Positions 41,982 to 63,843 of a stretch of 64,000 bases of DNA are shown here, piece by piece. The translations under genes were made by a program, and so were the position numbers. Position 1 is the first letter of the stretch; the number at the start of each line of letters is the position of its first letter. The stretch lies in IMG/VR virus record IMGVR_UViG_3300045988_132703; one strand, 5' to 3'. The DNA is from a virus. The notes beneath the pieces were generated by a model. It had not been told where the DNA came from, searched no databases, and was given only the letters and a program-made list of their open reading frames with translations.

Positions 41982-43054
41982 AATCTAGGTCTCCATTTAC
42001 CACTATCTCGAACTTGGCGAACATTTAAATTAGCCAATATATACAAATTACGGTCAGCTTGGATTGTTTGATTTATCAATTTGCATCGCTCTTTGCCAGC
42101 AATATGATAAACTTCATCCATAACTGTTTTATTAGAAGTAGGATTCAATTTATAAGTAAGAATATTTGAAAAAGCTCTCATTAAAATCTCATAAACAGTT
42201 GCTGCACCATCCCAATCATCTGGTTTTAAATCCACTTTTATAGGAATTTTTACATTGCGCGAGGCGCCATAAAAATAAATATTTAATGCAGCAATAAGAG
42301 CTTTTCGACTAGTAGGTTTCTCATTTAAAGGCACATGATAACCACAGTAGCAATTAAAACAATCTATATATTTCATTAATTTAGTAATAGGTATCCCATC
42401 ATTATGAACTAAAAATAACGCCTATCTACTATCAGTTATTGCTTTACTATTGGAAGAATAATAAACAAATAAATCTAAATCTTTTATCTAGCTGCTGTGT
42501 AAAAATAATAATTCATTTCCTCTTGAAGTAAAATAGTCAAATATTTCTTTTGCATAAGAGCTATTATAAAAATTATAATCATATAAAATGATTTTTTGAT
42601 TAGAATAATTTAGTTTAGTATAATCAATTAATAACTCATTTCCATTTGTTATTCTTAATAAAATAAAATCTTCGCTTAAAATTTTCTTAACTATCTAATT
42701 TTTAGTTCTAGTGGTAAATACATTTTCGTGAGTTTTTACAAAAGTAGAATAAAATGTCCTATCAGGAGGACTATGTTCAACTTCTTCTGGAAGTTTTACA
42801 TAATTACCAGTAAAGCCTCTACCTACCCATTGTAAATTACTTTGCAATAAAAAAGAAGAAGGAAAGTCCTTCTAAGAAAGACTTTCCCTAGAAAGATAAA
42901 GTATATCATATTTTTCACTATCTTCAAAAGATAGGACAAATTCTACTATATCTCCTCTTTTTTTATGATAATAGGACAATTTCATCAATTCAAGAGATGG
43001 ACAAAACTTCGCAGGATTTAAAAGAATATCCTAATCAAATATTCCAATATACAT
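41978..43054 (-). CDS. hypothetical protein (358 aa, 5 TAG as sense)
   Basis: ATG at 43054 overlaps the polymerase stop (TAATG). It is in frame with track ORF 41978..42376, with only TAG in between. Confidence 0.5.
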
Positions 43055-46000
43055 TAGTCTGTCCTCTCTGTTCTTAAAGTTAAATGTCCTGTTGAATAAT
43101 CAATATCTGAAATCAACGTAATTGGTTTATAGGGTGAAGTTTTATATGCTTTAGGAATTGCACTATCTCCACGACGAATACACTGAATAATAAGTTTATT
43201 TCCTCTTGTAAACCATGATTTTTCAGTAACCGTTTTTTTACCAGTTACTTCGTCTTTAATAAAAGACTGTTTATCATATTTTACAAATTGAGGTTTATAA
43301 ATTTTAACTTTTACAACTCCATACTGAGTTAATAGAGTTACAATGTTTTTCAGTTTATTTTTTTCAATTACTGTTCCTGCAATATTATGCAATTTATAAA
43401 TTGGAATTTCTTTTCCCTCTTTTGAAGTAAATATCGTTTCTGGAACTGGATCTTCTGGAAGATTAAAGAAATTATCAATTTCCCTTTCTTCAAAATCTAC
43501 TCCATCAAGTTCATGCGCACCATCATAATAACCAACGCTGTCCATTTCCCATTTAGGAATGAAACCAGAACAATATTTATTCCAAATCTCGTCAATGATT
43601 GCTTTATTTAAACTCTCTAAAACTTTAGGCTTTTTCAACCACGGACGAATTTTATCCATGTAAGCCTTATATATTTTTTCCATACGAGTTTGTTCAATCA
43701 TTGCTCCACTCTCTCCAAACTTAACTAAGTCTGGATTAAAATGTGCATTGAAAAATTCAAGAGAATAATCGTCAAGCAAATAATAAAGACCAGATTTACA
43801 ATTCTTTTTTAAGAATTTATTAAAATTATAAACTGCTGCAACATCTTGGTATTTATCTGGAATAATACCATACTTAATCAAAGTTGGCATATTAGCGAGA
43901 GTTAATTTATTTTTCGTTTCTGCAATACTTTCAATATAATTACGAAGAAGACTTTCGCGCGGGATAGAAGAAATTTTATCAAATGCTCCACATTTAATTA
44001 AATTAATAACTTGAAGTTTTGTACTTTTAACTTTCTTCAAGAAATCTTCAAAAGAATTATATGGCCGATTATCAATAATTTCATTTGCATAATCTGCACT
44101 AACTCTTGTGATACCTTTTAATCCATAAATAATTTTATGGTGCGCAACATCTGGAACAAAAGTATAATTTGAAGCATTAATGTCTGGAAGTTCAACATCG
44201 ACACCAAAATTCTTCATCTTGCCAATGGCAGAGCTAATTTTACCATATTGAACAGTTTTTGAAGATTTCTTTTTAGTATCTTCTTCATCTTCTAATTCAT
44301 CTTCAATATCATTGCCTAAAGTATAATCTTCATCTTTTGGATTATCTTCAAGACCACCACTATCAACAATTAAACAAGCCGTATCCCAATAAATTGGGTC
44401 ATAAAAATATGCCAAATTTAATTCTTGAATTGCTACTGTTGAATAAGCTATGGTATGAATAATACTAACTTGCCAAACATAATTTCTTATGCCATTTAAA
44501 ATGTTTTGGTCTGGACTATACCATCATCTTTAAGAAAAGATGTCCTTATTATAGTCTCTGAACGTCTATCTCAATTTAATATATTTTCTATAAAAAATAT
44601 ACTATTGGATATTTCGCTGCGTTTGATTATCCAATCTTAAACGATTTTACCTTACCGTTCCCATTACTGAACGCCGCAAATTAATTACTTAATTTGTTTG
44701 GTTGTTTAAGCTCTAAGGAGTTCCCCGCAATTTAAAGGATTTTCGATATACATCACTGTATAAAGTCGCTTAATTTTAACGAATAACCCATCTGCTTTTC
44801 GGCTTGAGACCAAATCCAATCAATAATGTCTTTAGAAGTTCCTAATTCTTTTCCCCGTTGATACAAATTTTCTTTTAAAGATGCAATTTCTTTAAATTTC
44901 TTTTTAGCAACAGTTTTACGGACTTTATTTGCTTCATCAACATTATAATTTGTAAATGGTAACATAACCGCGCGCATAAGAGATTCTTGGCTGTCCAATA
45001 CACCACCAAATTCCTTCATAAACTCATAAAGTTTATCTTTTTCTTCAGTAGTAGCATTAAGATTATAAATATCTCTTTTTAATTTTTCTGGATGCTCTTG
45101 GTATTCAACAAATTCCTCAACAGGAGTTTTTTGTCCTTTTTCTGGCATTAATCGCATCAAACTATTTGACTGCGCAAGAGTAAGCAAATTTTTTGGTTTA
45201 ATCTGTTTCGCTGTTTGCAATCCAACAGGAGTATCAAATTGGAACAAACTAATAATTTTATTGTCGCCAACAAGCTTCCACATTTCCGGATTATCGTAGT
45301 CAATAACATCTGGATTTAGATATTTCATATAAGTAGCTTTTAAAGAACCTTGCCACTCCATTAAACCATCATTAAGAAGTAATTCCATTGTGGTACGGAT
45401 TCTATCCAAACCATCAATAGTTAAGAACCTTTATACCCTCGGTTTCCCGATATTTATTAGGGGAGTAGACTATCTCTTCATCCTATTGCTAGGAGTCTCG
45501 CACTTCGATTTAAAGGGATTTCACCTACCAGAGTTTCACTGGCCCTACTTCTATTGACATTTATAAAGCTGTCTAAAGAATAGTCGTTACACCTTCTAGA
45601 TTAATCTAGCTTGGCACGGTATTACCATATTATTTAACTTAGGCTTTTACCGTTAGCCGCAAAGCGACACCCTTAAATAAGGTTCACGAGATTATAATAT
45701 ATTATTACTAATATATCAGACATTTGATATATTTAGAAATTTTAGCATATCTTGAGTTTTTCTTTCTAGAGTAATTTCTGAGTTAGTTGAAAGTAAATAC
45801 TAAACAATATTTTTAGTTCTAATATACTAATCATCCATAAATATATACCTTTATCGTACTTAATATGACCCGCGTACTCTTCATCATGTAATTCCCATTG
45901 GCTACATTTTACTCCTTTAGGACTCTTCATCGTCGCGCCAAGTTCTGTAAATTTATCGTTTGTTAAGATAATACCAGAAGCATGAACTCCACGGCGACTA

Positions 46001-48512
46001 ATCAATCCCTCAATGTTTTTTGCAACATTCCAAATATCTTCATGTTTGCCCATTTCTGCAATAAATTGCGGAATAGGCTGATACCCCTTTTCTTCGTCTC
46101 CGTAATAACATTGCTGTAAACTTCTAACAAAACCGCGGTCAATAGGAATTAAAGAACTAAGAAAACTTCCTAATTCTGGTTCGTATCCTAAACCACGTGC
46201 AGCAGTTTGCAATGCTGCTTTTGAAGTTTCAGTGCCAAAAGTTGCGACACTCGTTAATTCTCCGCCAATGGACTCAAAGTAACGACGAACTGCTTCAATA
46301 AATCTTTCACGCTTGGATGCCTGAGAATCAATATCGACCTTTAATTACCCTCGGTTTCCCGATATTTATTAGGGGAATAGACTATCTCTTCATCCTATTT
46401 CTAGGAGTCCTGCGCTTCGAACGGTGATTAAATCTGCTCTACTACTTAGTCGTTACACCACATCTATCCTATAATCTTTACAATGTCCATATTTTCTTAA
46501 AGAAGATATGCTACAGTCAAAATATTCTTTAGCATATTCTGCGGCAGCTTTCTTATTGTCGAAGATTTTTATAATAGAGTTAGTTGAAATTTGAACTAAT
46601 GCACATTTTATCTAATTGCGTGCTGGTCCCATTGTAGAATAAGAATCATATAAATTATATTTTCTATCACACCATTCAAGATTTTCTAATTTATTATTGC
46701 TTCTATTCTTATCTTTATGATTTACCTCTGGTAAATTATCTGGATTAGGAATAAAAGCTTCTGCAACAAGTCTGTGAACAGCGTAATGTTTTGCTATATT
46801 ATTTTCACATAAAGAAATATATTGATAACCAGCCATATTTGTCCAAGCAGACATTTCTTTAGGCTTTTTATATTTATATGAAATAACTCTTCCATCATCG
46901 GTTATCCCATAATCTTCGTGATTTTTAATTCTTTTTTCCATTAATTTTCACCTCTAATCAAGAAGTAAAAATTTATCAACTTTCCTCTAAGAAAAATAGA
47001 TACGGCACGGTATTATCTTTTCGGATTTCCACCGTTAGCCATTTTAAATGACACGCGATAATCAATCGCTTCACAGGATTTTCTATTATGATATTACTAT
47101 CATAAGCGGACTATGATATAAGTTAATCCGCGAGTTCTGCACGTCCTCTTGAACAAAATCTCCAATAAGGAAGTGCAGTTGGACTTTTCAATGGATCGCG
47201 CTGAATAATGTCCATCAAATATGCGCTTAACATTGAACCTACTGAACCACGCCAAGGACCGACTAAAGAGTCACCATCTGTCCAAGCAATATCAATAACT
47301 TTACGAACGGTGATAAAATAAGCACTTAAACGCTCTTGAATTTTTTCGGATACAATCCACATTTCTTGAAGTTCTTCTTCAAGTCTATCAAGATGAATTT
47401 TGTCTAAACAATCTAATTCAAGCCCTTTTTGAATAATACTATAAAGAAAGAATTTATCTTCTTCATATTCACTATTCAAATACTTATTTAAATATTCTCG
47501 TTCGCCAATGATTTTTTGTGGCTCACAGTGGATTAAATGCCAATCAAGAGGAATACGAGGAACAATTTGCTTATATGCCAAATCATATTCTTCAATCATT
47601 GAACAAACTTTATTACTATTTTCAAAAATTTGAGTAATAAAATCGTCATCAAAATAATTAAGTTTCTCTCGAATTTCCTCTGCACTCATCATATAAGTGT
47701 AAGCGTAGAAATCATCAGTCTCTCTATCTCCATCGCCAGAATTAAGAAAACTCTTATGAATTTCTCTATCCTCTTGACGTAAATAGTGGCTATCAGTCGT
47801 AACTGTGATATTAAAATGATTCTTTTTTGCAAACTGCGCAGCTAAAGTATTAAAAGTAACTTGTTCTTTACTCAGCCCAGGCTGAATTTCAATAAAGAAA
47901 TTTTCTTTACCAAAAATTTGTTCACACCAATGGCAAAAATTTAATGCTTTTTCATACTGTTGATTTAAAATCAAATAATCGAAAAAACTACCTAAGCAAG
48001 CTGTTTGTGCAACCACATGTCCAGAATTATTTCCGATAATTTCTTCAATGTCTGAATAATAAGTTGGAACACGTTCCATAAATTGATAAAAACTTCTATT
48101 CCAAGCTCTTGAAGATAATTCTCGAAGTTGTTTATTTCCTATTTTATCTTTTGCTAATAAAATAAAGTGCCAAAATTTATCTTCACCTTTAATAAAGTTT
48201 TTTGCACTTAAATTATCACGGCAAAGATAAATCTCATTTCCTAATACAAGTTTAAAATTTTTAACTTGATTAGCCCATTTATCATTTGGTTCTGTCTCTA
48301 AAATCTTTTTCGCCTTTGATTTTAAAGATTTCATGTATTTTAAAGCTTTGATATAACCGGAAACACTCTCGTGGTCAGTGATTGCTACACCCGTTAAACC
48401 CAATTCCAAAGCATAATCAATTAATTTATCTTCTTTGATAATACAATCGAGCATACGAATGTTAGACCCACTAAGAATAATGGGTATGATTATGTCCACT
48501 AAAATATCCCAT
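43054..48512 (-). CDS. dnaE: DNA polymerase III alpha subunit (DnaE-type, PHP N-terminus), 4 exons / 3 group I introns plus a frame change near the start
   Basis: Exons on the minus strand are 47126..48499 (or from ATG 48512 with a 10-nt gap), 45853..46338, 44779..45427 and 43054..44492, summing to 3948 nt in frame from 48499. Motifs include HNHTHYS / NIRMLDC...AITDHESVSG (PHP), ...RFCSRGRAELAD|VDIDSQ..., HIKYD|FLTIDGL and ...HTIAYSTVAIQELNLAYFY. Confidence 0.8.
44493..44778 (-). mobile_element. group I intron pol-a (family II)
   Basis: The minus strand has AAATTGCGGGGAACTCCTTAGAGC, GCGGCGTTCAGTAATGGGAACGGTAAGG, CAAACGCAGCGAAAT, GTTCAGAGACTATAA and GGTATAGTCCAGACC, ending ...TTTTAAATG. P1 is UCGU/GCGA. 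Boundaries are good to within a few nt. Confidence 0.7.
45428..45852 (-). mobile_element. group I intron pol-e (family IV, ORF-less)
   Basis: The minus strand has GCGGCTAACGGTAAAAGCC, GGTAATACCGTGCCAAGC, GTAACGACTA, AGATAGTCTACTCCCC and CGGGAAACCGAGGGTATAAAGG. Splicing joins ...KYD to FLTIDGLDRI. Confidence 0.75.
46339..47125 (-). mobile_element. group I intron pol-f (family IV) carrying an HNH endonuclease gene
   Basis: P1 is GCGGAT|TAACTT...GTCCGC with a U.G. Core blocks are GGCTAACGGTGGAAATCC, AATACCGTGCC, GTAACGACTA, AGATAGTCTATTCCCC and CGGGAAACCGAGGGTAATTAAAG. Confidence 0.8.
46453..46941 (-). CDS. intron-encoded HNH homing endonuclease (162 aa, 1 TAG)
   Basis: RBS GAGGTGAAAA. Track ORF 46612..46941 (…HRLVAEAFIPNPDNLPEVNHKDKNRSNNKLENLEWC...) continues through a TAG to TAA 46453-46455. 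Confidence 0.75.
48464..48473 (-). other. 10-nt coding gap (candidate translational bypass or +1 frameshift site) in the polymerase gene
   Basis: The minus strand reads ...CAT ACC CAT TAT TCT TAG TGG G TCT AAC ATT CGT ATG CTC GAT. The take-off UCU is followed by TAG. An identical UCU 10 nt downstream is in the frame that continues as NIRMLDC... Confidence 0.45.
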
Positions 48513-48584
48513 TATTTCTTAGAATCACCTCTCTTTCTAATGCTTTCAATAAAGTAATTTGATATTATTTCCATTTCTATAAAT

Positions 48585-48613
48585 ATTATATCACATTTTT
48601 GCGCAGAAATCAA
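48585..48613 (-). promoter_or_regulatory. middle-class promoter (TTGATT-17-TATAAT-ATTTATAGAA)
   Basis: The plus strand shows ATTATA 48585-48590 and AATCAA 48608-48613, with the conserved TTCTATAAATATTATA block. Confidence 0.6.
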
Positions 48614-50671
48614 AACATTGCCCTACCATTTTCAAGCTCATAATCTTCTATGATAACTTGAGGAGTATAATTACCCATAAATTGATTTAAATTCATTTTA
48701 CCATAAACGGTAATTGCACCAATAGAATAAGACTGAACTTTTTGTGCAAAATCGGCATCTTTAAATTTAACAAAAGCAATCCCATCTTTTTCAATTTTAA
48801 CGGAATCTTTATTTTTGCCCATGATAAACACATCATTTTGGGTAAAAAGAATTTTATTGACAATAACTTTAGGTTCTTCAACACCTTTGCCATAAACATT
48901 TTTTATGGCGTCCAAATCAACACAAATAGATTCAATATCGCCGCAGAAATTTCCATCAAATTCAAAATCTACAAGATAGCTGTTTTCACCCAAATTGATA
49001 TTAGCCAATTTCTTATTACAGTATTTAATAAATTTATTCAAATTCTTTTCTGCAATCCCAATACCTGCCGCGCTTTCATGTCCTTCAGCATATTCGACCA
49101 ATCCACTCTTAGTACAAAAATCCTTAAAATTTGCAAGAGGACTATTTGAATTAACCCTAAAAGAACCTTTAAATACATTATCATCTGCTAAGCGAATTAC
49201 AATAGCAGGACGGTTATACATTTGACAAAGCTTCATCGCAATTAAGCCAGTTAAATTAGGATTGACATATCTTGATTCGTCGTCATCAAGGGCAACTAAA
49301 AGAACTTTGTTTTCATCTAAACATTCTTTTTCAATTTTCCCACAAAGAAATTGGACACTTTGGTCAATCATTTTATTTTGATGATTACGTGCATTAGTGG
49401 CGATTCGTGCGGCTTTATCTGCAATGACTTCTGTATCGCCAGGCTTTGCCCCACGTTTGGTAGATGGTTCAGTATCATTCGGACCGCTAATAAATGCTTT
49501 AAATAAAGTTTCTTTTTCTTCCATTGTCCCTACACGAATTACCGCATTAACGAGTGGCGCGATGAAAAAAGAAACATCTGTAGGAGTAATATCATCAATA
49601 TTTCCTATCGAGAAAGATTGTTTTAAAGCAAATCGAGTCAAACCATAATTCTTTAAATTTGTTAAACCTTGACTGATAATATATCTTGTCTCAAGATTTC
49701 TTAAATCCATCATGTCACCAACGATACCCATTGCTGCGAGATCAAGGAAATTGTCAGCGTAATTATAACCATATTTTATATCAAAATATTTAATAAATTT
49801 ATAGACAACTCCAGCACCAGATAAATCTCGGTTAGGATATTTCCCTAATTGATTATTAATAACAATCGCATTTTCGCTTTCTGCTTCACACAAGTGATGG
49901 TCAAGAATAAGAATATCAAAACCTTGTTCTTTTAATATTTTATGTTCTTCATATTGATTAGAACCTGCATCTGGAATAACAATTAACTTCGCTTCATGAG
50001 GAACTTTATCTAACTCAACACCATGCTATTTCCCAGAGTGCATAGACCAAAGAATTTGAATATTCGGTTTAATCAATTTTAAATAATTATAAAGAATAGC
50101 AGAAGATGTAACTCCATCCTGATCAGACATTACTACCCCGACTTTTGTCGTATTTATTCAGCAATTGCTGAAATTTATTATACTTTCTATTTAAATAAAA
50201 AGTATAAATTTTAAGGGATTAGACTATACAATCTCTTTCGAGTCGGTATTATAGTCGTTGAACGTTTCTCTTATTTATTACTAGACTTAGAGACTTCGCT
50301 GCGTTTGATTACCCAATCTTCAATGTTTTTACCTTACCGTTCCCGTTACTGAACGCCAATATAAAATTTCTTATATATCTTGGTAATTGAAGTTCTAAGG
50401 GACTCCCCGCAATTTAACCGATTTAACGTGGACTCAGACTTTTAGGTTAATCCACTACGTCATAAATAATTGAATTAGCATCTAAATGCTTCTTTAAAAG
50501 TTCCGCGCCAGCATCTATATTCTTCAAAAGAAGTGGCGAATAGAGAACTTCTTTCGAAGGTTTCAAATATTGAATCATTTCATCGTGATTCAATCCTCTT
50601 GCACGCAATAAAGTTTCGACATAAGATTCATTTGGCAAATGATTAATTTTACTATTTAATACATATTTCAT
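48610..50671 (-). CDS. recJ: RecJ-like DHH-family single-strand exonuclease, 2 exons / 1 intron (579 aa, 1 TAG)
   Basis: Exons are 50450..50671 and 48610..50127. The junction is ...IIYDVVD|SDQDGVTSSAIL (DHH motif I/II region). Other motifs are ...LILDHH... and ...GHESAAGI... Confidence 0.7.
50128..50449 (-). mobile_element. group I intron recJ-b (family II)
   Basis: P1 is GTGGAT|TAACCTAAAAGTCTGAGTCCAC. Core blocks are AAATTGCGGGGAGTCCC, GGCGTTCAGTAACGGGAACGGTAAGG, CAAACGCAGCGAAG, CGTTCAACGACTATAATACC and GTATAGTCTAATCCC. It ends ...GTAGTAATG. Confidence 0.8.
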
Positions 50672-56665: not shown

Positions 56666-56673
56666 AATTTTAT

Positions 56674-57234: not shown

Positions 57235-57263
57235 ATTATAGCACATCGCGCGGTAAAAATCAA
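57235..57263 (-). promoter_or_regulatory. middle-class promoter (distal copy)
   Basis: TTGATT-17-TATAAT-ATTTATAGAAAG on the minus strand. The -35 overlaps the upstream stop codon. Confidence 0.55.
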
Positions 57264-57583: not shown

Positions 57584-57614
57584 CGGAAACACCTCTGTTT
57601 GATTTTCTATAATT

Positions 57615-57643
57615 AGTATAACATACAAAACAAAAAAAGTCAA
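57615..57643 (-). promoter_or_regulatory. promoter TTGACT-17-TATACT with its -35 inside the terminator stem
   Basis: The plus strand shows AGTATA 57615-57620 and AGTCAA 57638-57643. Confidence 0.55.
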
Positions 57644-57662
57644 GGTAATGACACCTTGACTT
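57632..57662 (-). terminator. Rho-independent terminator after the topoisomerase A gene
   Basis: On the minus strand, AAGTCAAGG-TGTCATTA-CCTTGACTT is followed by TTTTTT. Confidence 0.7.
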
Positions 57663-57668
57663 AAATAT

Positions 57669-60588
57669 TTATTCGACAATTAATCCGGTTACATATTGCC
57701 CATCTTTAAGATTAATAGATTTTACGCCAACCGTTGCACGACTAGTAGTAGGAATTTCATTCAAAGAAATTTTTATAATTGCTCCTGTACTAGCAACAGA
57801 AACAGTTTTTGAATCTTCGCGCACGGGTGCAAAGCCAGCTAATTTATCCCCATCATTTAGCTTATGAATAATTGCTCCTTTTGCTGCGCGGGAAGTAACT
57901 GAAAATTCATCTAAATCAGTCTTTTTAACTTGTCCTGCTTCAGTTACGGAGATAAGCTCCTTAGCATCTTTTCTAATGACACAAGCGTCACAAACTTCAT
58001 CACCAGGGCGCAGAGTAATTCCACGGACACCGATAGTATTTCTACCTTGAGTATTAATTTCAGTTAATGGGAAAATAACGACATAGCCGTTTTTGGTAGT
58101 GATCGCGAGATTATCTTTATTATTCACAATCATTACTCTTTTAATAAAATCACCATCAGTTAATTTAATCGCAGAAACGCCTTTAATACGCTTAATATTA
58201 TATTCTCTTAAAAGAGTCTTTTTAACAGTTCCCTTTTGAGTAACAAAAAGGACTTCTTCTCCTTGAGATTTATCTGTATCGCTGACAATATAAGTAATTG
58301 TCTCGTCAGGCGCGAGTTCAAGGATTGTACTAATTGGAGTTCTGCAATCAAGAGTGAGATTACTTAGTGCAAGATTGTATACTTTACCAAGAGAACTAAA
58401 AAGTAAAAGATTATTTAGATTAGAATCTTTTACCGTTTGAATAATTTGCTCATTATTGCCTAACTTAACTTTCATACCTCTGCCGCGACGTGCAGTGATA
58501 AGAGTAGTATCTTCATAAGCGTAAAGAGTATTTAAATTAGTTAAATGAACAACCATTTGTTTCTTTTCTATTGGCTCATCGGTCTCTTCATTAATGGTTA
58601 AATTCATAATTTGAGTGCGACGTTCGTCACCAAACTTTGATGCAACATCCTGCCAACCTTTAATTAATTGTTTATCAAATTCTTCTTCATTATCAAGAAT
58701 ATATCTTAATCCATCAATTTTTGCAGTAAGTTCTTCAGCTTCTTTTTCAAATTTCTCAACTTCCATGTGCGCTAAGCGAGAAAGTTTAATATCAAGAATT
58801 GCTTTAGCTTGAATTTCATCAAGTAAAAAGTTAGATTGCAAATTTTTATTTGCCTCTGCCGTTGAAGAAGATTTTTTGATTACTTCAATAACTTCTTCGA
58901 TTCGTGCAAGCGCAATTAAAATGCCTTCAACAATATGAAGTCTTGCTTCTGCTTTTGCTAAATCATATTCATAACCACGACGATAAACTACTTTCTCATG
59001 GTCAATATGAGCTTGAAGCAATTCTCTCCATCCAAATACTCTTGGGAAACGGCCATTATCAAGCATCGTCATATTAATGCTAAAATGATGCTGTAAAGAT
59101 GTTTCTTTATAAAGAATCTGAAGCACTTTAGAAACATTGGCTTTTTTAGTAAGATAAATTTTAATATTAGGAGTAGAACCTGTCAAATCATTATAGCGCT
59201 CAATACCAGGACAAAGTCCTTCATTTAAAATTCTATCAAGCTCTCCACGAATTGTTCCAGTATAAACGCTATAAGGGATTTCTTTAACAATTAAACAATT
59301 TTCACTCTCGTCATACTCAATAACAGAGCGGAGTTTGCAAGCTTTACCAACACCATTCTTAATACTTTCTTTTACTTCGTCAGCATTAAGTAAAATTGCT
59401 CCAGTGGCGAAATCTGGCGCGCAATAAATTTCATCAAAATCGCAGTCTGGATTTTGAAGCAAAGTAATTAAAGCGTTATTTACATCTTTAATATTAAATT
59501 GAGGACAACTAGAGCTTGCGGCGACCATGCCGCTCCACCATTTCGGGTGGCACTGACTATCTTTTACTTTCTATAAATAGAAAGGACACCATTTCAGACT
59601 GTGTACCAATAACAGCCTTACTCCCCCGATTCGGGGATAGTCGATACAGGATTTATTTTAATATGTCTATATCTTCGACCGCAATATATATCATTAAAAT
59701 ATTTCCCACGGGATTGCCTTCTAATTGTAAAATGCTATTCCAATTCCAAAACTTTAATTTTTAAATTAAATTTGGCATTACAATCGTTCAGGTTTCCCCG
59801 TTAGCCACATTAAGTGACCCCGCTGGTAAGCGGTAAAGTGTTACACAGGCAATTCTTAATTACCAATTCCACTAGTGCCATTGACAATATTAAAATAGCC
59901 CTTTCCAGTTAAAACGGCAGGATATTGTTCTGTGTCATCGTAATTATCTCGCCATTCTTTAATGGTATTTTTTTCAATATCTTTGAATAGATATTCAGCG
60001 AGAGGGGACAAACGTGCAGAAGTATAACGAGGAGCAGACCAGTTTCCGCTTTCTGCGAGAGTACCGTAAGCGCCATCTACTTCAACCAAAGGATAGCGCA
60101 TAGAGAATGGTTGCCCCGCACGCATAATAACTCCAACACAAGATGAGTCCAAAATGTTATCCTAAAAGCTTTTTATCTTTTAGTTCTTACAATTTCTTGT
60201 AAGTTCAGCATATCTTTTTAGCTCGCGCTATCGGGGCCTCGTGGAGAGATTATATCTTTTCACTCTCTATGCGTTGCGGCTGGCTATATTAAATATAGCC
60301 TTCACCTCTGATTAGCTTGACTTAAAGTTTTAGCCTTCCAGATTTTTTCCCCAATTTAACCACGGCAATTCAATCTTTACCGTGGATATACATTCTCATT
60401 GCTGAGCCTACTGCTTTCAAAGTCTTTTTAAAAGGCTTATCAGCAGTAAATTTATCTGTTTTCATACAGTAGAAAATTTGCCGAGCGGACGGTTTCAAAA
60501 AATCTCGCGCATCCACGAGAGCGCGAGACTGCAAAACCGCACCAGAATATTGAGCAAAACTTTCTTCAATAATCGGTGTTAGTTCCAT
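57669..60588 (-). CDS. type IIA topoisomerase subunit A (GyrA/ParC-like), 3 exons / 2 introns (784 aa)
   Basis: Exons are 60379..60588, 59862..60149 and 57669..59525. The spliced product reads ...SRALVDARDFLKPSARQIFY...MRMYIHG|DSSCVGVIMRAGQPFSMRYPLVEVDGAYG...APRYTSARL...NGTSGIG|VAASSSCPQFN... The C-terminal part has repeated beta-pinwheel-like blades. Confidence 0.8.
59526..59861 (-). mobile_element. group I intron topoA-h (family III)
   Basis: The minus strand has TGGCTAACGGGGAAACC, GGCAATCCCGTGGGAAAT, GTATCGACTATCCCC and AGATAGTCAGTGCC, with a P9 hairpin CCACCCGAAATGGTGG. The 3' boundary was set by analogy and by frame. Confidence 0.7.
60150..60378 (-). mobile_element. group I intron topoA-j (family V)
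   Basis: P1 is CCACGGT|AAAGATTGAATT GCCGTGG with a U.G. The 3' half GCAACGCATAGAGA...CCACGAGGCC...AAAAAGATATGCTGAACTTACAAG...TAGGATAACATTTTG matches terL-A. Confidence 0.8.
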
Positions 60589-60589
60589 A

Positions 60590-63500
60590 TTACTCCTTTA
60601 TTTCTGAAAAGTCAATTTTACTAAATACAAAATCTTTACGAGGTTGAACATCCTCGCCCATCAAATCATAAAGCATTTGAATAGAATCATCATCTGAGAC
60701 AAGAATATCCATTCGTTGATTCTCAGGATTAAACATAGATTCTTTTGCTTTTGCTGCACTCAATGCGCCCAAGCCTTTTTCACGACTAACATCGCCTTTA
60801 ATTTGCGCTCGAGCTTTGTTAAACTCTTCATCGCTGTAAAAATAAGTGTGTTTCTTACCATTTGTAACAATGTAAAGAGGAGAGCGTAACCAGCATAGTC
60901 TATGCTCTTGAATGAACTCAGGAGCAAGATATTGTAGTGCAGACATAATAAGCAAACCAATATGATAACCATCGGACATTTATACCCTAGCTTTCGCTAT
61001 ATTTCAAGGGATTAGACTATACAATCTCAGTAGAGTCAGTATTATAGTCGTTGAACGTTTTTCCTTTTAAGGAAACTTCGCTGCGCTTGATTACCCAATC
61101 TTCAATGATATTACTGTACCGTTCCCGTTACTGAACGCCACCAAAATAATTACTTACTTGGTTTAGTTATTGAAGCTCTAAGGGACTTCCCGCAATTTAA
61201 CTGATTTAGTGCGGACTCAACTTTTGGTTAATCCGCATCCGAACAAATAGCAATTCGTCCATAACGTAGTTTAGAAGAATTGTATTTTCCGGGGATAATA
61301 TTCATCGCACTTAGGAGCAATTTAATTTCTTCATTTTCAAAAATTTTATCCTCGCTATTGGATAGGCAATTAATAATTTTCGCGTAATCCATTATTTCTA
61401 ATGGTGCTGACTATCTTTTAATAGAAAATTCTATTACAGCCATTTCGAACTATGTATCAATAATAGTCCTACGAGCCGATTAAGGCATCTAGTCGATACA
61501 GGTATTTTATTCCCACGGGATTGCCTTGCCTGCATAGGTTTAGGTTTCCCCGTTAGCCGCAATGAGCGACCCCACTGATAAGTGGCAAAGCTGTATTAGG
61601 GCAATTTTGTTTACCCCTAATGGCCAAAATTCCGTAATGCTTTTCATCTCGCGCAATGGCCATAGCTGCCGCAGCAGAATTTCCTTCTACAATTAAGAGA
61701 GTTGAATCTTGCCCAAGATATTCTGCATCAGACAATTTATCAGAAGAAAAAACTTTTCTCTTTTGATTCTTCTCAATATCTTTAGTTGCATTTAGAACAG
61801 CTGTTCTTGCTTTTTCTGCTGCTTTTTCTGCTTTTTCTTCCTTGGTAAGAAAATCTTCAATTTTCTTTTCTTCATTGGGATATTGTAAGCAGAACTTCTC
61901 AAATCCTTCGCTAAAAGCTTTACTTGCAAGACTGCGCAATTCTGGATTGTTAATCTTCGTTTTTGTTTGATTAGCGAAAGAAGGATTAACAACTTTACAA
62001 CTAACTGCATAAACCAAACCAGTTCGTGCAAGCTCGCCAGTTAAACTTTTAATTTTCTTTTGAAGAGTTTTAGTAATTGAAGTTTTTAGACCAGTGATAG
62101 GAGTACCACCTTCAGCATTAGCAACACCATTTGTGAAACAATAAAAATGTTCATTGCGCGCTTTCGTCCAAACACAAGCAATTTCAACTGAATTTGTTCC
62201 ATCGCTTAAAAAGTAAGAAATCGGATTTTCATGAACTTTATTTGCAGCTTTTTGCATAACCAAATCCATAAGACCATTTTCACTTTTATAGGTAATACTT
62301 TGTGCTGGAGAGACAGTTTCATCTCGAAGTTCAAAAGTCAATCCTTTGGTTAGAAAACTTAAATTTTCACAAGTCTTACATAAATGCTCAAATTTAATTT
62401 CAATAGGCTCAAGATTAAAGACTTGCGCATCTGGCTTATATTTTACAAAAGTACCGTTGGGCAAATTTTTATCATTATTCACTTCGGTATAATCAATCAT
62501 ATTTCCGCGTTCAAAACAAATTGAAGCTACTCGATTATCACGAACTGACACAACTGAAAATTCTTCAGATGAAAGGCAAGTAGCTTTCGCTCCAATCTTA
62601 AATATTCAACAAGAGTCGTTAATTCCTGCCCGCGACTTTACTCGCTGCTCATAGTTTCCTATGAGAATAGACTATATCTTTTTCAATCCCATTTCGACTC
62701 ACTTGAGTCTACTCTACTAATTATCTCTTGATAATTTATACCTAATAATTTATTCCAATCTGGACATTTATTTTCAAGAAGATATTTTTCGATAGTCGTT
62801 GAACTTTCATCTATAATATAACCAAATTCTCTCATTTTGTTAATTCTAAAAAGTATTGCTTGGCGTAGCGCTTCGTCTGCGCCGTATTTTCCAATTGAAA
62901 AACTTTTTTGTTTTTGCAATTTTCTTTTGTCATTATATCTGGTATCATTTTCAAAAGTAGACCAGCGAACCCGGATTCTTGGAGTTCCTCTAGCCCCTTT
63001 TTCTATGCTAATGCCATTAAAATTAAAAGAATTTGATTTAATTGGTTTAGAGTTCTTTTTATTTTCAGAACAGGTAACTAATCTTAAATTGGACTTTTGA
63101 TTATTTAATCCATTGCCATCTATGTGATCAACTATGATTTTAGGATTGGTTACTTTCATAATATAACGATGTGCTTTTCCATAAGTATCATGCTGAGCAT
63201 AATCAGTTCTTGAATTATGCAATTCTTTTGGTACCAAATACCAACCACTCTTAGGAAAAGTTTCATAATCCTCATCGTCTAAAAGAATCTCTTTTCCGCA
63301 TTTCATTAAAAATTTTTTCATCTATAACCTCTTTATAGGGTTATATTATAGATGCTTAGCTGCGTTAGGTTATCCAATCTTTAACGATTTTACTATACCG
63401 TTCCCGTTACTGAACGCCATTTAATTATTACTAATTAAATTTAGTTGTTAAAGCTCTAAGGAATTTCCCGCAATTAAAGATTTTTTAGAACAGCTATGAA

Positions 63501-63843
63501 GTCAACCGTTCAAACCAACTGCAAACTGATAATCTTTTGATGTAAATTTACCGCCAGTATGCGCATGAGAATAAATAGCTTCAAGAACATTTTCGCCATT
63601 TTCTCTTGTTCCAAAAGGAACTCCACGCCCATAATCTCTTACAGAAATGTAATTATCAGGATAAAGTACAATTTCAATTTTATTACCAAATCCCATAATA
63701 AATTCGTCAATTGAATTAGAAATAATTTCTTGGATGCCGTTGTACACGCCTTCCATATCGTTGGAACCAAGATACATCGGGATTCTCATACGAACAGCTT
63801 CCTTAAATTGAAGCGTTTCGATAGAGTTTATATCATAACTCAT
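60590..63843 (-). CDS. type IIA topoisomerase subunit B (GyrB/ParE-like), 4 exons / 3 introns (619 aa)
   Basis: Exons are 63505..63843, 61613..62596, 61231..61380 and 60590..60976, summing to 1860 nt. The spliced product reads ...AVRMRIPMYLGS...HTGGKF...AVGLNG|IGAKATCLSS...LLIVEGNSAAAAMAIARDEKHYGILAIRG|KIINCLS...ENEEIKLLLSAM...LRYGRIAICSDAD|SDGYHIGLL... Confidence 0.8.
60977..61230 (-). mobile_element. group I intron topoB-c (family II)
   Basis: P1 is GCGGAT|TAACCAAAAGTTGAGTCCGC. It is nearly identical in its core blocks to recJ-b. It ends ...GGGTATAAATG. Confidence 0.8.
61381..61612 (-). mobile_element. group I intron topoB-i (family III)
   Basis: It follows ATTAGGGGT. Core blocks are GCGGCTAACGGGGAAACC, GGCAATCCCGTGGGAAT, GTATCGACTAGATGCC and AGATAGTCAGCACC, with a P9 hairpin CCATTAGAAATAATGG. 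It ends ATTACGCG, and splicing gives RG|KIINCLS. Confidence 0.7.
62597..63504 (-). mobile_element. group I intron topoB-d (family II) carrying an HNH-AP2 endonuclease gene
   Basis: P1 is GAACGGT|...GCTGTTC with a U.G. The 5' half has TTAATTGCGGGAAATTCCTTAGAGC, GGCGTTCAGTAACGGGAACGGTATAG and CTAACGCAGCTAAGC. The 3' half has GGAATTAACGACTCT and GATATAGTCTATTCTC. It ends ...TATTTAAG. Confidence 0.75.
62683..63321 (-). CDS. intron-encoded HNH endonuclease with AP2-like DNA-binding region (212 aa)
   Basis: The track ORF has [40 protein letters not shown] (HNH) and [19 protein letters not shown]... (AP2-like). Confidence 0.75.
   Translation of the reverse strand: [212 protein letters not shown]

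What the first reader, a model, noticed from the sequence alone, without database searches (positions are those of the whole stretch)
43054..63843. Ten more group I introns sit in five replication genes, making 16 introns in five sequence families within 64 kb
PolIII alpha has 3 introns (44493-44778, 45428-45852, 46339-47125). The RecJ-like gene has 1 (50128-50449), and the DnaB-like gene has 1 (52425-52663). Topo-A has 2 (59526-59861, 60150-60378), and topo-B has 3 (60977-61230, 61381-61612, 62597-63504). The apparent stop codons that end the track ORFs are the first nucleotides of introns, for example GCGGAT|TAAC. The families are defined by shared blocks. Family I is AATTGCTGGAAA/CAATCAGCAGC (terL B, D, E, F). 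Family II is AAATTGCGGGGA/GGCGTTCAGTAACGGGAACGGTA/CAAACGCAGCGAA (pol-a, recJ-b, topoB-c, topoB-d). Family III is GCTAACGGGGAAACC/CAATCCCGTGGG/AGATAGTCAG, which is td-like (dnaB-g, topoA-h, topoB-i). Family IV is GCTAACGGT/AATACCGTGCC/CGGGAAACCGAGGGTA (pol-e, pol-f, and the 5' half of terL-C). Family V is GCAACGCATAG/CCACGAGGCC/ATGCTGAACTTA/TAGGATAACA (terL-A, topoA-j). By my boundaries the introns total about 6.3 kb, roughly a tenth of the window. Families are shared between the late and replication modules, which implies intragenomic spread.
Basis: partly seen in the sequence, partly recalled or inferred. Interest (0 to 1): 0.9.

Follow-up and report, generated by a model that had tools for sequence, protein, structure and literature searches.

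The report
Sixteen group I introns, one phage
Five DNA-replication genes of an uncultured gut phage are interrupted by ten self-splicing (group I) introns, plus six more in its DNA-packaging gene; this density is exceptional even for phages, and close relatives lack these introns or carry them with homing-endonuclease genes.

Summary
The finding holds. All ten intervening sequences are real, precise insertions. For each one, relatives 85-99% identical in the flanking exons carry an empty site, and my predicted 150-nt ligated junction aligns to it without gaps. The PolIII intron at 44493-44778 actually ends at 44469.

All ten align end-to-end or partly to Rfam's group I model on the coding strand, but below its gathering score. 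All ten obey the exon-U / intron-G rule. Most have a guide sequence matched to the local exon. Three families show compensatory base-pair changes, including the P3/P7 pseudoknot.

The five families and their sharing between late and replication modules are confirmed. Six terL introns are confirmed too, giving 16 introns, 6302 nt, 9.8% of the window.

The genome reads TAG as glutamine, which explains two leftover in-frame stops. Relatives carry the same ribozymes with LAGLIDADG, GIY-YIG or HNH endonuclease genes. These genes are TAG-rich although they sit in TAG-poor early genes.

Intron-dense gut phages are already known (crAss Zeta, Jug phages). This is a new, unusually extreme member of a known kind. 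Splicing itself is inferred, not shown.

The parts
43054..48499 (-). PolIII alpha (DnaE-type) gene. Four exons: 47126-48499, 45853-46338, 44779-45427, 43054-44468. The exact start codon is uncertain.
   Evidence: Pfam PHP, DNA_pol3_alpha, finger and HHH_6 domains appear in order on the fragments. The spliced protein aligns to Taq/E. coli PolIIIalpha. The 3924-nt spliced CDS aligns gaplessly to the uninterrupted genes in L045-L047, 92-96% nt and 97-98% aa identity.
46339..47125 (-). Intron pol_3 (787 nt, family IV), inserted in the catalytic motif ELAD|VDIDS. It carries an HNH ORF.
   Evidence: Empty site in 8 close relatives at 92.6-99.3% identity, plus one partial distant match. RF00028 17.4 bits over the 3' core. 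P1 of 6 bp with U.G, guide sequence at +15. The 3' 75 nt is 93% identical to pol_2 and 88-97% identical to introns in 210 Firmicutes phage records.
46453..46941 (-). HNH homing-endonuclease ORF inside pol_3: 162 aa, with one in-frame TAG at 46612-46614.
   Evidence: Pfam HNH_3, E = 1e-9. The same 162-aa ORF with 1 TAG occurs in L001 and L048-L050.
45428..45852 (-). Intron pol_2 (425 nt, family IV), inserted at HIKYD|FLTID.
   Evidence: Empty site in L045-47 and L051, gapless 150/150. RF00028 38.2 bits, E = 1.2e-6. Boundary uniquely fixed and obeys U/G. P1 is unresolved: only a 4-bp guide at +185, after an AT-rich stretch of about 180 nt.
44469..44778 (-). Intron pol_1 (310 nt, family II), inserted at GYS|FSIIH, phase 1.
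   Evidence: Six close relatives match the 44469 junction gaplessly at 93-97%; none match 44493. The protein is restored to match GYGFNKSH. RF00028 42.9 bits. P1 4 bp plus P10 5 bp. L048-50 carry the same ribozyme with a LAGLIDADG ORF, 1133 nt.
48610..50671 (-). RecJ-like gene. Exons 50450-50671 and 48610-50127. It has an in-frame TAG (Gln) at 50026-50028.
   Evidence: The spliced protein gains a DHH domain of 57.6 bits that spans the junction. Syn:nonsyn 140:24 against intron-less alleles.
50128..50449 (-). Intron recJ (322 nt, family II), inserted in DHH motif DVVD|SDQDG.
   Evidence: Empty site in 9 loci and 15. RF00028 44.2 bits, E = 1.8e-8. P1 6 bp with U.G. Covariation including P3. Variants of 266 nt and of 1125 nt with a LAGLIDADG ORF occur in relatives.
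51732..53758 (-). DnaB-like helicase gene. Exons 52664-53758 and 51732-52424. It has an in-frame TAG (Gln) at 52745-52747.
   Evidence: The spliced protein scores DnaB_C 53.6 bits over residues 204-466, against 19.9 bits for the fragment. Syn:nonsyn 122:18.
52425..52663 (-). Intron dnaB (239 nt, family III).
   Evidence: Empty site in 8-10 relatives. RF00028 28.7 bits, full-length alignment, when searched alone. P1 6 bp plus P10 4 bp. Family III covariation in 25 of 61 pairs.
57669..60588 (-). Type IIA topoisomerase A subunit (GyrA/ParC-like). Exons 60379-60588, 59862-60149, 57669-59525.
   Evidence: Pfam DNA_topoisoIV profile positions 1-49 | 50-144 | 147-428 on the three fragments. Gapless alignment to S. 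aureus GyrA across both junctions. Uninterrupted at 99% aa identity in L009-L014. Syn:nonsyn 119:8.
60150..60378 (-). Intron topoA_1 (229 nt, family V), inserted at YIHG|DSS (the GyrA HPHGD motif).
   Evidence: Empty site in 8 relatives. RF00028 23.7 bits, E = 0.005 in a 4-kb search. P1 7 bp with U.G. Family V covariation in 22 of 54 pairs. L042 has the same ribozyme plus a LAGLIDADG ORF, 1076 nt.
59526..59861 (-). Intron topoA_2 (336 nt, family III), inserted at TSGIG|VAAS.
   Evidence: Empty site in 7 close relatives. RF00028 15.5-15.7 bits. Family III covariation. Relatives have the same ribozyme plus a GIY-YIG ORF (1015 nt) or a remnant of it (685 nt).
60590..63843 (-). Type IIA topoisomerase B subunit (GyrB/ParE-like). 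Exons 63505-63843, 61613-62596, 61231-61380, 60590-60976.
   Evidence: Pfam HATPase_c, DNA_gyraseB and DNA_gyraseB_C on the fragments. Gapless alignment to E. coli GyrB across all three junctions.
62597..63504 (-). Intron topoB_1 (908 nt), inserted at GLNG|IGA in the ATP-lid motif. It is chimeric: the 5' ~150 nt is family II and the 3' ~170 nt resembles terL_F (family I). It carries an HNH-AP2 ORF.
   Evidence: Empty site in 8 relatives. RF00028 23.8 bits on the P9/3' core. P1 7 bp. The chimerism comes from blastn. L001 has the ORF-less 396-nt form, 98-99% identical in both arms.
62683..63321 (-). HNH + AP2 homing-endonuclease ORF (212 aa) inside topoB_1.
   Evidence: Pfam HNH_3 (2e-7) and AP2 (8e-6).
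61381..61612 (-). Intron topoB_2 (232 nt, family III), inserted at LAIRG|KIIN.
   Evidence: Empty site in 10 close relatives. RF00028 36.3 bits, with P1 containing U.G and a P7.1/P7.2 insertion visible in the alignment. Covariation. Among the fetched loci it is present only in the window-identical contig L002.
60977..61230 (-). Intron topoB_3 (254 nt, family II), inserted in the Toprim motif SDAD|SDGYH.
   Evidence: Empty site in L009 and in two distant relatives. RF00028 42.5 bits, E = 1.2e-8 in the 4-kb search. P1 7 bp. Covariation including P3.
10876..11173 (+). terL intron A (298 nt, family V).
   Evidence: Boundaries from restoration of the uninterrupted L065 TerL. RF00028 28.8 bits. P1 of 8 bp, guide at +84.
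11195..11423 (+). terL intron B (229 nt, family I). It follows a 21-nt exon (11174-11194) encoding GIIDEVR.
   Evidence: RF00028 73.2 bits, above gathering. Boundaries. P1 7 bp.
11463..12437 (+). terL intron C (975 nt, 5' part family IV). It holds an I-HmuI-like HNH ORF at 11713-12435 (240 aa, 7 TAG). It follows a 39-nt exon (11424-11462).
   Evidence: RF00028 21.6 bits. Boundaries. Pfam NUMOD4, HNH_3, NUMOD1 and I-HmuI_NUMOD-like.
12508..12762 (+). terL intron D (255 nt, family I). It follows a 70-nt exon (12438-12507).
   Evidence: RF00028 85.6 bits. Boundaries.
12977..13233 (+). terL intron E (257 nt, family I).
   Evidence: RF00028 78.9 bits. The flanking exons are contiguous in L065/L066. 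Boundaries.
13551..13796 (+). terL intron F (246 nt, family I).
   Evidence: RF00028 97.5 bits. 100% restoration of the L065 protein across the junction.

Best explanation
The ten intervening sequences in the PolIIIalpha, RecJ-like, DnaB-like, GyrA-like and GyrB-like genes, and the six in terL, are group I self-splicing introns. They sit in a TAG=Gln-recoded phage of about 176 kb from the human gut, of the large Bacillota siphophage type.

Mechanism, inferred from the anatomy:
- Each gene is transcribed as one pre-mRNA.
- The intron's internal guide sequence pairs with the last 4-8 nt of the upstream exon (P1), with a U.G wobble at the splice site.
- An external guanosine bound in P7 attacks that site.
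- The terminal intron G then takes its place, and the freed exon attacks the 3' splice site, in some introns aligned by P10.
- This rejoins exons inside highly conserved catalytic motifs and restores full-length enzymes.

The introns are mobile at the DNA level. Two in this module (and one in terL) carry HNH endonuclease genes. Four of the eight ORF-less introns here are the ORF-less state of ribozymes that carry LAGLIDADG or GIY-YIG endonuclease genes at the same site in relatives. Spread is by endonuclease-triggered homing into empty sites during co-infection.

New sites were colonised within the lineage by ribozymes of the same five families, whose guide sequences are matched to each new exon. 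Paralogous introns also recombine with each other.

Shown: precise insertion and empty-site polymorphism, group I structure signals, matched guide sequences, purifying selection on exons, and endonuclease ORF presence/absence. Inferred: actual splicing, homing, and the direction and route of spread.
For: 1. Empty sites. All 10 predicted ligated junctions align 150/150 without gaps to relatives. L009 has the whole gyrB-gyrA-dnaB-recJ module intron-free at 95% identity, and L046, L047 and L051 have an intron-free polIIIalpha.

2. Protein continuity. Junctions are gapless in conserved motifs of solved GyrA, GyrB and PolIIIalpha. DHH and DnaB_C domains are restored.

3. Rfam RF00028. Hits on the coding strand for 10/10: 44.2, 42.9, 42.5, 38.2, 36.3, 28.7, 23.8, 23.7, 17.4 and 15.5 bits. 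There are none anywhere else in 64 kb.

4. Boundary rule. Exon-U / intron-G holds in 10/10. Six boundaries are fixed independently by the empty site.

5. P1. U.G wobble with at least 5 exon-side bp in 13/16 introns, against 21% of shuffled controls. Guide sequences differ between paralogues in step with the local exon.

6. Covariation.
- Family III: 25/61 pairs changed on both sides, with P1-P9 and P7.1/P7.2 recovered.
- Family V: 22/54.
- Family II with an explicit P3/P7 pseudoknot: 96.7% paired, 15 double changes against 5.7+-1.9 in shuffles (0/500) and 1-3 when partners are slid.

7. Selection. Syn:nonsyn codon differences to intron-less alleles are 119:8 (gyrA), 256:35 (polIIIalpha), 140:24 (recJ) and 122:18 (dnaB).

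8. Endonucleases. HNH ORFs sit in the window's introns. LAGLIDADG and GIY-YIG ORFs sit in the same ribozymes at the same sites in relatives.

9. Similarity to known introns. The 3' cores of pol_2 and pol_3 are 88-97% identical to introns in 210 Firmicutes phage records. Family I matches a type found in 486 phage records.

10. Independent assemblies. A separate assembly (Logan ERR414483, L002) is 100% identical including the introns it covers.
Against: - No RNA or protein data: splicing is inferred.
- All ten replication-module introns score below Rfam's gathering cut-off of 50 bits. Three score below 24 bits, with E-values near or above 0.01 in the full-window context.
- pol_2 has no convincing P1: only 4 bp, 185 nt from the 5' splice site. 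It may need a protein cofactor or an alternative fold.
- Each covariation test rests on only three sequences, and the tested structures were derived from those same sequences.
- In family III the covariation-supported long-range helix that abuts P8 has its 5' strand upstream of two hairpins rather than next to P4. That is not the textbook order and I did not resolve it.
- Family IV was not tested by covariation.
Confidence: 0.93

Rival explanations
1. They are group I-derived insertions, but some are no longer autonomous ribozymes. A subset (pol_2, pol_3 and topoA_2 are the candidates) may splice only with phage or host protein help, splice inefficiently, or undergo exon skipping. In that case the elements partly act as regulators or burdens rather than neutral passengers.
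For: These elements have the lowest RF00028 scores: 15.5-17.4 bits for topoA_2 and pol_3. P1 is unresolved in pol_2. In Bastillevirinae, four of eight spliced genes spliced only in vivo, and exon skipping occurs in multi-intron terL and pol genes (PMC11878797). terL here has exons of only 21, 39 and 70 nt.
Against: Exons are under strong purifying selection in the intron-bearing genome. These are essential replication genes present in single copy in the window. Low Rfam scores are expected when large peripheral insertions or ORFs interrupt the core. topoA_2 shares covarying helices with its family.
Confidence: 0.25
2. The gene fragments are expressed as separate polypeptides that assemble without RNA splicing. 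They would be split genes created by endonuclease-gene insertion, as in T4 gp39/gp60 or 'fractured genes'. Alternatively, the interrupted genes are pseudogenes.
For: Standard gene callers report the fragments as separate ORFs. Split topoisomerase genes do exist in T4-like phages (one search lists the gp39-gp60 structure).
Against: - Many fragments lack start codons or ribosome-binding contexts and begin mid-motif. Examples are the 54-aa GyrB piece and the 21-nt terL exon.
- Eight of the ten inserts have no ORF at all, yet they have group I structure with guide sequences matched to the exon.
- Breakpoints cut through catalytic motifs (DxD of PolIIIalpha, Toprim DxD, HPHGD).
- dN/dS-like ratios exclude pseudogenes.
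Confidence: 0.02
3. The insertions are inteins or group II introns rather than group I introns.
For: Inteins are common in DnaB, GyrA, GyrB and PolIIIalpha of bacteria and in crAss-like phages (PMC7886860, PMC4760082). Group II introns were recently reported in phages (PMC12350094).
Against: - The host reading frame hits a stop within a few codons of most 5' junctions (for example GAT|TAA, GGT|TGA).
- No Hint/intein or reverse-transcriptase domain occurs in any fragment or intron ORF.
- Most inserts are 229-336 nt, too small for either.
- Rfam finds no group II family in the window.
Confidence: 0.005
4. The insertions are assembly artefacts or chimeras from mixed strains in a metagenome.
For: The population is highly polymorphic for these elements, a situation that can confuse assemblers.
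Against: The same introns at the same sites, 96-100% identical, recur in independent assemblies from different samples and pipelines: ENA ERZ28656892, seven Logan runs, and IMG/VR. L002 is 100% identical over 14.4 kb including seven introns.
Confidence: 0.01

Closest known systems
Group I introns of Herelleviridae phages (Twort orf142, SPO1/Bastillevirinae DNA polymerase, terL and RNR genes)
   Same: - Self-splicing group I introns in Firmicutes phages, inserted in conserved motifs of DNA-metabolism and terminase genes.
- HNH (I-HmuI-like), GIY-YIG and LAGLIDADG endonuclease ORFs in peripheral loops.
- Several introns per gene.
- Direct sequence similarity of the cores (PMC11878797).
   Different: - Those phages have at most two or three introns per gene, and 45 introns in total across the 37 species surveyed. 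Here one terL has six, polIIIalpha and gyrB have three each, and 16 lie in 64 kb.
- Host genes here include gyrA, gyrB, a DnaE-type polIIIalpha, recJ and dnaB. I found no report of introns in these genes for phages.
- This genome uses TAG=Gln.
Intron/intein-dense crAss-like phages of the Delta and Zeta groups (Yutin et al. 2021, PMC7886860)
   Same: Uncultured human-gut phages of 145-192 kb that combine stop-codon recoding in late genes with a very high load of self-splicing introns in core genes such as terL, MCP and polymerase. Both features hamper annotation in the same way.
   Different: - crAss-like phages infect Bacteroidota, use PolA/PolB and a giant RNAP, and carry inteins as well.
- Their reported maximum is 14 introns plus 3 inteins per whole genome, found through endonuclease domains.
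- This phage has a Bacillota-type backbone: TerL nearest to Geobacillus E3 and Enterococcus EF1, with PolIIIalpha and gyrase.
- It has no inteins in the window. Thirteen of its 16 introns are ORF-less, so they would be missed by a domain-based search.
Jug (jumbo gut) phages (PMC12880540)
   Same: Many short (about 206 nt), mostly ORF-less group I introns fragment terL, nrdD and polymerase genes. Stand-alone and intron-borne HNH, GIY-YIG and LAGLIDADG genes are present. Splicing was verified there by metatranscriptome junction reads for 37 of 76 introns.
   Different: - Jug phages average 18.5 introns per 360-402 kb, about one per 20 kb. Here the rate is one per 4 kb.
- Their terL is split into 2-3 fragments, against seven here.
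- Jug phages use the standard code and infect Bacteroides/Phocaeicola.
T4 td / nrdB / sunY introns (subgroup IA2) with I-TevI/II/III
   Same: Family III has the IA-type extra helices P7.1/P7.2 between P7 and P3' and short core motifs like td (ACGGGGAAACC...CAAUCCCGUG). The homing-endonuclease life cycle, with ORF-plus, ORF-minus and empty-site alleles, is the same principle.
   Different: No blastn-detectable similarity to T4; the nearest relatives are in Enterococcus phages EF1/EF5 (72% over 119 nt). Subgroup assignment was not testable because Rfam has a single group I model.
phAss-1 group of TAG-recoded PolIIIalpha siphophages (PMC10607447) and Enterococcus phage EF1
   Same: Human-gut phages of about 135 kb, predicted to infect Clostridia. 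They have TAG suppression in terL and tail genes, a very long tape-measure gene and a PolIIIalpha. EF1 is listed there as a relative, and EF1's terL is itself in three pieces with an HNH gene.
   Different: That paper does not mention introns at all (0 occurrences). The identity of the present genome with that proposed genus was not tested.

Membership tests
Group I self-splicing intron | Match to the family covariance model (Rfam RF00028) at or above its curated gathering score of 50 bits | tested here: inconclusive
   The ten replication-module elements score 15.5-44.2 bits, all below 50. Five have E <= 4.3e-6 in a 21.5-kb search. topoA_1 (23.7 bits) and dnaB (28.7 bits) appear only in small searches. 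Four of the six terL introns pass, at 73-97 bits. All RF00028 hits in the window lie inside the 16 elements on the coding strand.
Group I self-splicing intron | Conserved core helices (P3-P9, with the P3/P7 pseudoknot) supported by compensatory changes | tested here: met
   Family III: 25/61 pairs. Family V: 22/54. Family II with explicit P3/P7: 15 pairs changed on both sides against 5.7+-1.9 shuffled (0/500), and P3 shows three pair types at one position. Family IV (pol_2, pol_3) was not tested by covariation; it rests on Rfam scores and near-identity of the 3' core to known phage introns. Only three sequences per family.
Group I self-splicing intron | P1 helix between the end of the 5' exon and an internal guide sequence, with a U.G wobble at the splice site | tested here: met
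   13/16 introns have at least 5 exon-side bp, against 21% of shuffled controls. Manual inspection adds pol_1 (4 bp + 5-bp P10), topoA_2 (3+4 bp) and terL_A (8 bp at +84). pol_2 is unresolved. Guide sequences differ between paralogues to match each exon.
Group I self-splicing intron | 5' exon ends in U and the intron ends in G (omega-G) | tested here: met
   10/10. Six boundaries are fixed uniquely by empty-site alleles, so they form an independent test. The other four have exactly one sliding option that obeys the rule.
Group I self-splicing intron | Precise removal restores an uninterrupted, conserved reading frame | tested here: met
   Gapless junction alignments to empty-site alleles for 10/10. 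Gapless alignment to solved homologues. Domains restored.
Group I self-splicing intron | Guanosine-initiated two-step transesterification producing ligated exons | not testable with these tools
Mobile (homing) group I intron | Homing-endonuclease ORF in a peripheral loop, and empty / ORF-less / ORF-plus alleles in the population | tested here: met
   Window: HNH in pol_3, HNH-AP2 in topoB_1 and an I-HmuI-like HNH in terL_C. Relatives: the same ribozymes plus LAGLIDADG (pol_1, recJ, topoA_1) or GIY-YIG (topoA_2); an ORF-less topoB_1 in L001; empty sites for all ten. Endonuclease activity and homing themselves were not tested.
Subgroup IA2 (T4 td-like), claimed for family III | P7.1/P7.2 helices between P7 and P3', and relatedness to td-type introns | tested here: inconclusive
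   P7.1 and P7.2 are present and covary. There is no blastn similarity to T4 introns; only Enterococcus EF1/EF5 match, at 72%. No subgroup-specific models were available.
Intein | In-frame insertion encoding a Hint domain, removed at the protein level | tested here: not met
   The host frame is closed by stop codons within or just after the junction. No Hint/intein Pfam domains.
Group II intron | Six-domain RNA (domain V) and usually a reverse-transcriptase/maturase ORF | tested here: not met
   No group II Rfam family is hit at permissive thresholds. No RT domain. Most inserts are only 229-336 nt.

The most novel reading that the evidence does not exclude
This lineage may carry the highest density of self-splicing introns described for any virus: one per 4 kb over 64 kb, and six in a single protein-coding gene with exons as short as 21 nt. 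That load may be tolerated because the phage's own code switch gates intron mobility. Intron-borne homing-endonuclease genes lying in TAG-free early genes are themselves TAG-rich (20 TAG in 1448 codons, against 2 in 3889 for their host genes). They could therefore be translated only late in infection, once TAG is read as Gln, that is, after the interrupted replication genes have done their work. Combined with recombination between paralogous ribozymes, this would make the genome a self-contained breeding ground for introns.
Probability: 0.3. Interest if true: 0.75.

Novelty: new member of a known kind. Interest (0 to 1): 0.55.

Why it matters
Annotation. Standard gene calling shatters five essential replication genes and terL into about 25 meaningless ORFs. 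The cause is two stacked features: TAG=Gln recoding, and 16 introns of which 13 have no ORF. Domain-based intron surveys would miss most of them, so intron loads in recoded gut phages are probably underestimated.

Biology. More than 20 near-identical genomes differ mainly by which of at least 13 sites are empty, hold an ORF-less ribozyme, or hold a ribozyme with an endonuclease gene. This is a natural time series of the homing-endonuclease/intron life cycle. It could be used to measure gain, degeneration and loss rates, co-conversion tracts, and ectopic colonisation of new sites.

The TAG-rich endonuclease ORFs inside TAG-poor early genes extend to TAG and to three endonuclease families an idea that Borges et al. 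raised for a single TGA-recoded family: that recoding delays endonuclease expression.

Tried and rejected
- Rfam at gathering thresholds found nothing in the claimed region. Permissive and small-region searches were needed.
- Megablast of 57-64 kb against cultured phages gave no match, so no annotated close relative exists in that collection.
- ARAGORN found no tRNA or suppressor tRNA in the window. The source of TAG decoding is outside the window or in the host.
- I first read the two residual in-frame stops in recJ and dnaB as possible pseudogene signs or extra introns. I rejected that because both are TAG, and TAG is sense genome-wide.
- Orthologous intron copies from relatives were collected for covariation but are 96-100% identical and so uninformative. 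Paralogues were used instead.
- An automated P1 search mis-assigned four introns to distant sites. Three were resolved by hand; pol_2 was not.
- A search for further introns in non-coding gaps of the window found none.
- A direct test of 'td-like' by similarity to T4 found nothing.
- I did not use the large protein-database searches, structure prediction or custom covariance models, because the empty-site alleles settled the question.

Full report
**What is there**

The region 43-64 kb is transcribed from the minus strand. It encodes, in fragments:
- a DnaE-type PolIIIalpha;
- a RecJ-like DHH nuclease;
- a DnaB-like helicase;
- the A and B subunits of a gyrase-type topoisomerase.

The fragments carry consecutive pieces of the same Pfam profiles. 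For example, DNA_topoisoIV positions 1-49, 50-144 and 147-428 fall on three neighbouring ORFs. An all-against-all blastn of the 16 elements reproduces the five families.

**Splicing in silico**

It leaves a single in-frame stop in each of recJ and dnaB. Both stops are TAG, and homology continues across them.

TAG is a sense codon throughout this genome:
- Reading it through creates ORFs of 2336 and 1440 codons in the late module, with 40 and 10 internal TAGs. Treating TGA or TAA as sense does nothing comparable.
- At the window's in-frame TAG positions, relatives keep TAG 317 times. Where they substitute it, CAA/CAG is used in 20 of 34 cases.
- So the code is TAG=Gln. No tRNA gene lies in the window.

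With splicing plus TAG=Gln, RecJ gains a DHH domain of 57.6 bits across the junction. DnaB_C rises from 19.9 to 53.6 bits.

**Junctions against homologues**

Junctions in GyrA (HG|DS, SGIG|VA), GyrB (LNG|IG, IRG|KI, DAD|SDG) and the first two of PolIIIalpha (LAD|VDID, KYD|FL) align without gaps to solved structures, inside catalytic or strongly conserved motifs.

Moving the 3' splice site from 44493 to 44469 gives GYSFSIIHTIAYS, which is colinear with GYGFNKSHAAAYS. The new 3' exon start can also pair with the guide region as a P10 helix.

**Empty-site alleles (the decisive test)**

A look-up of an uninterrupted window protein, together with pattern scans of IMG/VR, returned 58 loci from relatives for the replication module. 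A third IMG/VR scan later added 80 terL loci.
- One contig (Logan ERR414483) is 100% identical to the window, including seven introns.
- The others are 91-98% identical in the exons.

For every one of the ten elements, some close relative has an empty site. The predicted 75+75-nt ligated junction aligns to that site over all 150 nt without a gap. For the corrected PolIII intron, six relatives match the 44469 junction and none the 44493 junction.
- L009 has the entire gyrB-gyrA-dnaB-recJ module free of insertions.
- L046, L047 and L051 have an uninterrupted polIIIalpha.

The spliced coding sequences align full-length and gaplessly to these alleles. Synonymous:nonsynonymous codon differences are 119:8 (gyrA), 256:35 (polIIIalpha), 140:24 (recJ) and 122:18 (dnaB). 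The interrupted genes are therefore under purifying selection and are not pseudogenes.

**RNA evidence**

Rfam at its gathering thresholds reports four group I introns, all in terL. With permissive filters, RF00028 hits appear on the coding strand in all ten replication-module elements. Scores run from 44.2 down to 15.5 bits. Five have E <= 4.3e-6 in the 21.5-kb search. topoA_1 and dnaB emerge only when short stretches are searched. A permissive scan of the whole window on both strands finds RF00028 hits only in the 16 elements.

All ten 5' exons end in U and all ten introns end in G. In six cases the empty site fixes the boundary uniquely, so the rule is an independent test there.

A guide sequence that forms P1 with a U.G wobble lies 9-17 nt into most introns:
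- 13 of 16 have at least five exon-side pairs, against 21% of shuffled controls.
- Paralogous introns have different guides that match their own exons.
- terL_A has an expanded P1 loop, with the guide at +84.
- pol_2 has no convincing P1.

Compensatory changes between paralogues support the fold:
- Family III: 25 of 61 RNAalifold pairs, including P7.1/P7.2, which mark an IA-type architecture.
- Family V: 22 of 54.
- Family II, with an explicit structure including the P3/P7 pseudoknot: 96.7% of cells paired and 15 pairs changed on both sides, against 5.7+-1.9 in shuffles and 1-3 when partners are slid.

These tests use only three sequences each, and the structures were derived from the same sequences.

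**terL and the total**

Relative L065 has an uninterrupted 564-aa TerL. The window's terL aligns to it as seven exons. Choosing U/G-compliant splice sites that best restore that protein gives these introns:
- 10876-11173
- 11195-11423
- 11463-12437
- 12508-12762
- 12977-13233
- 13551-13796

Three internal exons are only 21, 39 and 70 nt long. The sixteen introns sum to 6302 nt, 9.8% of the window. The ten in the replication module occupy 4042 of 20.8 kb.

**Mobility**

The window's introns hold three endonuclease ORFs: HNH in pol_3, HNH-AP2 in topoB_1, and an I-HmuI-like NUMOD-HNH in terL_C.

At five sites, relatives carry the same ribozyme (91-100% identical arms) with or without an ORF in a peripheral loop:

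| Site | Window | Relatives |
|---|---|---|
| pol_1 | 310 nt, no ORF | 1133 nt with LAGLIDADG |
| recJ | 322 nt, no ORF | 266 nt; 1125 nt with LAGLIDADG |
| topoA_1 | 229 nt, no ORF | 1076 nt with LAGLIDADG |
| topoA_2 | 336 nt, no ORF | 1015 nt with GIY-YIG; 685-nt remnant |
| topoB_1 | 908 nt with HNH-AP2 | 396 nt without ORF |

Relatives also have insertions at sites that are empty in the window: window positions 61689 in gyrB, 49088 in recJ, 45866 in polIIIalpha (14 nt from the pol_2 site), and a different 1033-nt element 5 nt from the topoB_3 site. This is the classical picture of homing introns cycling through empty, ORF-plus and ORF-minus states.

**Spread**

Families are indeed shared between terL and replication genes (IV and V), and topoB_1 is a chimera of families II and I. 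L001's dnaB intron contains an 82-nt stretch 100% identical to the topoA_2 intron. That shows recombination between paralogous introns.

Paralogues are 79-84% identical over 130-240 nt. That is closer than any intron in 50,697 phage records for families II, III and V (67-74%). Family I belongs to a cosmopolitan phage type. The short 3' core of family IV is 97% identical to an Enterococcus phage terL intron.

Proliferation within this lineage is therefore well supported. Strictly intragenomic transposition, as opposed to import from co-infecting relatives, is not proven.

**Comparison and novelty**

Group I introns in phage DNA-metabolism and terminase genes are textbook material: T4, SPO1, Twort, and Bastillevirinae with up to three per gene (PMC11878797). 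Intron-dense gut phages are also documented:
- crAss Zeta, up to 14 introns plus 3 inteins per genome, which the authors called unprecedented (PMC7886860);
- Jug phages, 18.5 per 360-402 kb, with splicing verified by metatranscriptomes (PMC12880540).

The backbone here is a large Bacillota-type siphophage. Its TerL is 48% identical to Geobacillus E3 and 38% to Enterococcus EF1. It resembles the TAG-recoded PolIIIalpha phages described as phAss-1, a paper that does not mention introns (PMC10607447).

What is new:
- the lineage;
- the host genes (gyrA, gyrB, polIIIalpha, recJ, dnaB);
- the local density;
- six introns in one gene, for which I found no precedent in the searchable literature. That search is not exhaustive.

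I class this as a new, extreme member of a known kind.

**Limits**

- Splicing and homing are inferred.
- All ten replication-module introns fall below Rfam's curated threshold.
- pol_2's P1 and the helix order at the 5' side of family III are unresolved.
- Family IV lacks a covariation test.
- The rest of the genome (about 110 kb) was not examined.

Noticed in passing
whole window; e.g. 24476-31483 (+), 31533-35852 (+); recJ 50026-50028; dnaB 52745-52747: The genome uses TAG as a sense codon, most likely Gln (code 15). Late plus-strand genes are TAG-rich (40 TAGs in a 2336-codon ORF). Replication genes have 0-1. Relatives keep TAG 317 times, and where they substitute it CAA/CAG is used in 20 of 34 cases. 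No suppressor tRNA lies in the window.
   Followed up: partly
46453-46941 (-), 11713-12435 (+); relatives L048-50, L001, L042, L004: Homing-endonuclease ORFs inside introns of TAG-free early genes are themselves TAG-rich: 20 TAG in 1448 codons over six ORFs, against 2 in 3889 codons of their host genes. The density is similar to late genes. This fits the idea that recoding delays endonuclease expression (Borges et al. reported it for one TGA family), but it was not tested statistically across the lineage.
   Followed up: partly
11174-11194, 11424-11462, 12438-12507 (+): terL contains internal exons of only 21, 39 and 70 nt between adjacent group I introns. The 21-nt exon encodes GIIDEVR, apparently the Walker B motif (my reading of the sequence, not tested). 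Such micro-exons invite exon skipping, as reported for Twort orf142 and SIOphi terL.
   Followed up: no
62597-63504 (-); L001 dnaB intron (286 nt): There is evidence of recombination between intron paralogues. topoB_1 has a family II 5' part and a terL_F-like (family I) 3' part. In relative L001 the dnaB intron carries an 82-nt patch 100% identical to the topoA_2 intron.
   Followed up: partly
window positions 61689, 49088, 45866/7, 48575, 60971 (sites empty in the window): Relatives carry further insertions at sites that are unoccupied in the window:
- 1125 nt with a GIY-YIG ORF in gyrB;
- 297-925 nt in recJ;
- 303-1613 nt in polIIIalpha, only 14 nt upstream of the pol_2 site;
- 649 nt between recJ and polIIIalpha;
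- a 1033-nt element 5 nt from the topoB_3 site.
Their nature was not analysed.
   Followed up: no
45668-45852 (-), 5' part of intron pol_2: The first ~180 nt of pol_2 are AT-rich and have no recognisable P1 partner. The only candidate guide (GUCG) lies at +185, directly before the conserved core. This may be a very large P1 loop or the remnant of a lost ORF.
   Followed up: partly
family III introns: 52425-52663, 59526-59861, 61381-61612 (-): The covariation-supported long-range helix whose 3' strand abuts P8 (the position of P3) has its 5' strand directly after P1 and upstream of two covarying hairpins, instead of next to P4. The helix order does not match the textbook scheme, and Rfam's P3 assignment there is poorly paired.
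   Followed up: no
exon flanks of all ten insertion sites, compared with L009: Identity of the 150-nt junction windows to the intron-less relative L009 is 85-95%: topoB_3 85%, topoB_2 89%, recJ and topoA_2 92%. This is at or below the module-wide 95.2%. It suggests co-conversion tracts or target-site divergence around the insertion sites.
   Followed up: no
5' exon ends of the introns: Insertion sites share short sequence contexts across unrelated genes: GGAU|UAAC in pol_3, recJ and topoB_3; (A)ACGGU| in terL_A, topoA_1 and topoB_1. Most introns follow a GGU (Gly) or GAU (Asp) codon. This could reflect guide-sequence-dependent site choice or simply the codons of conserved Gly/Asp motifs.
   Followed up: no
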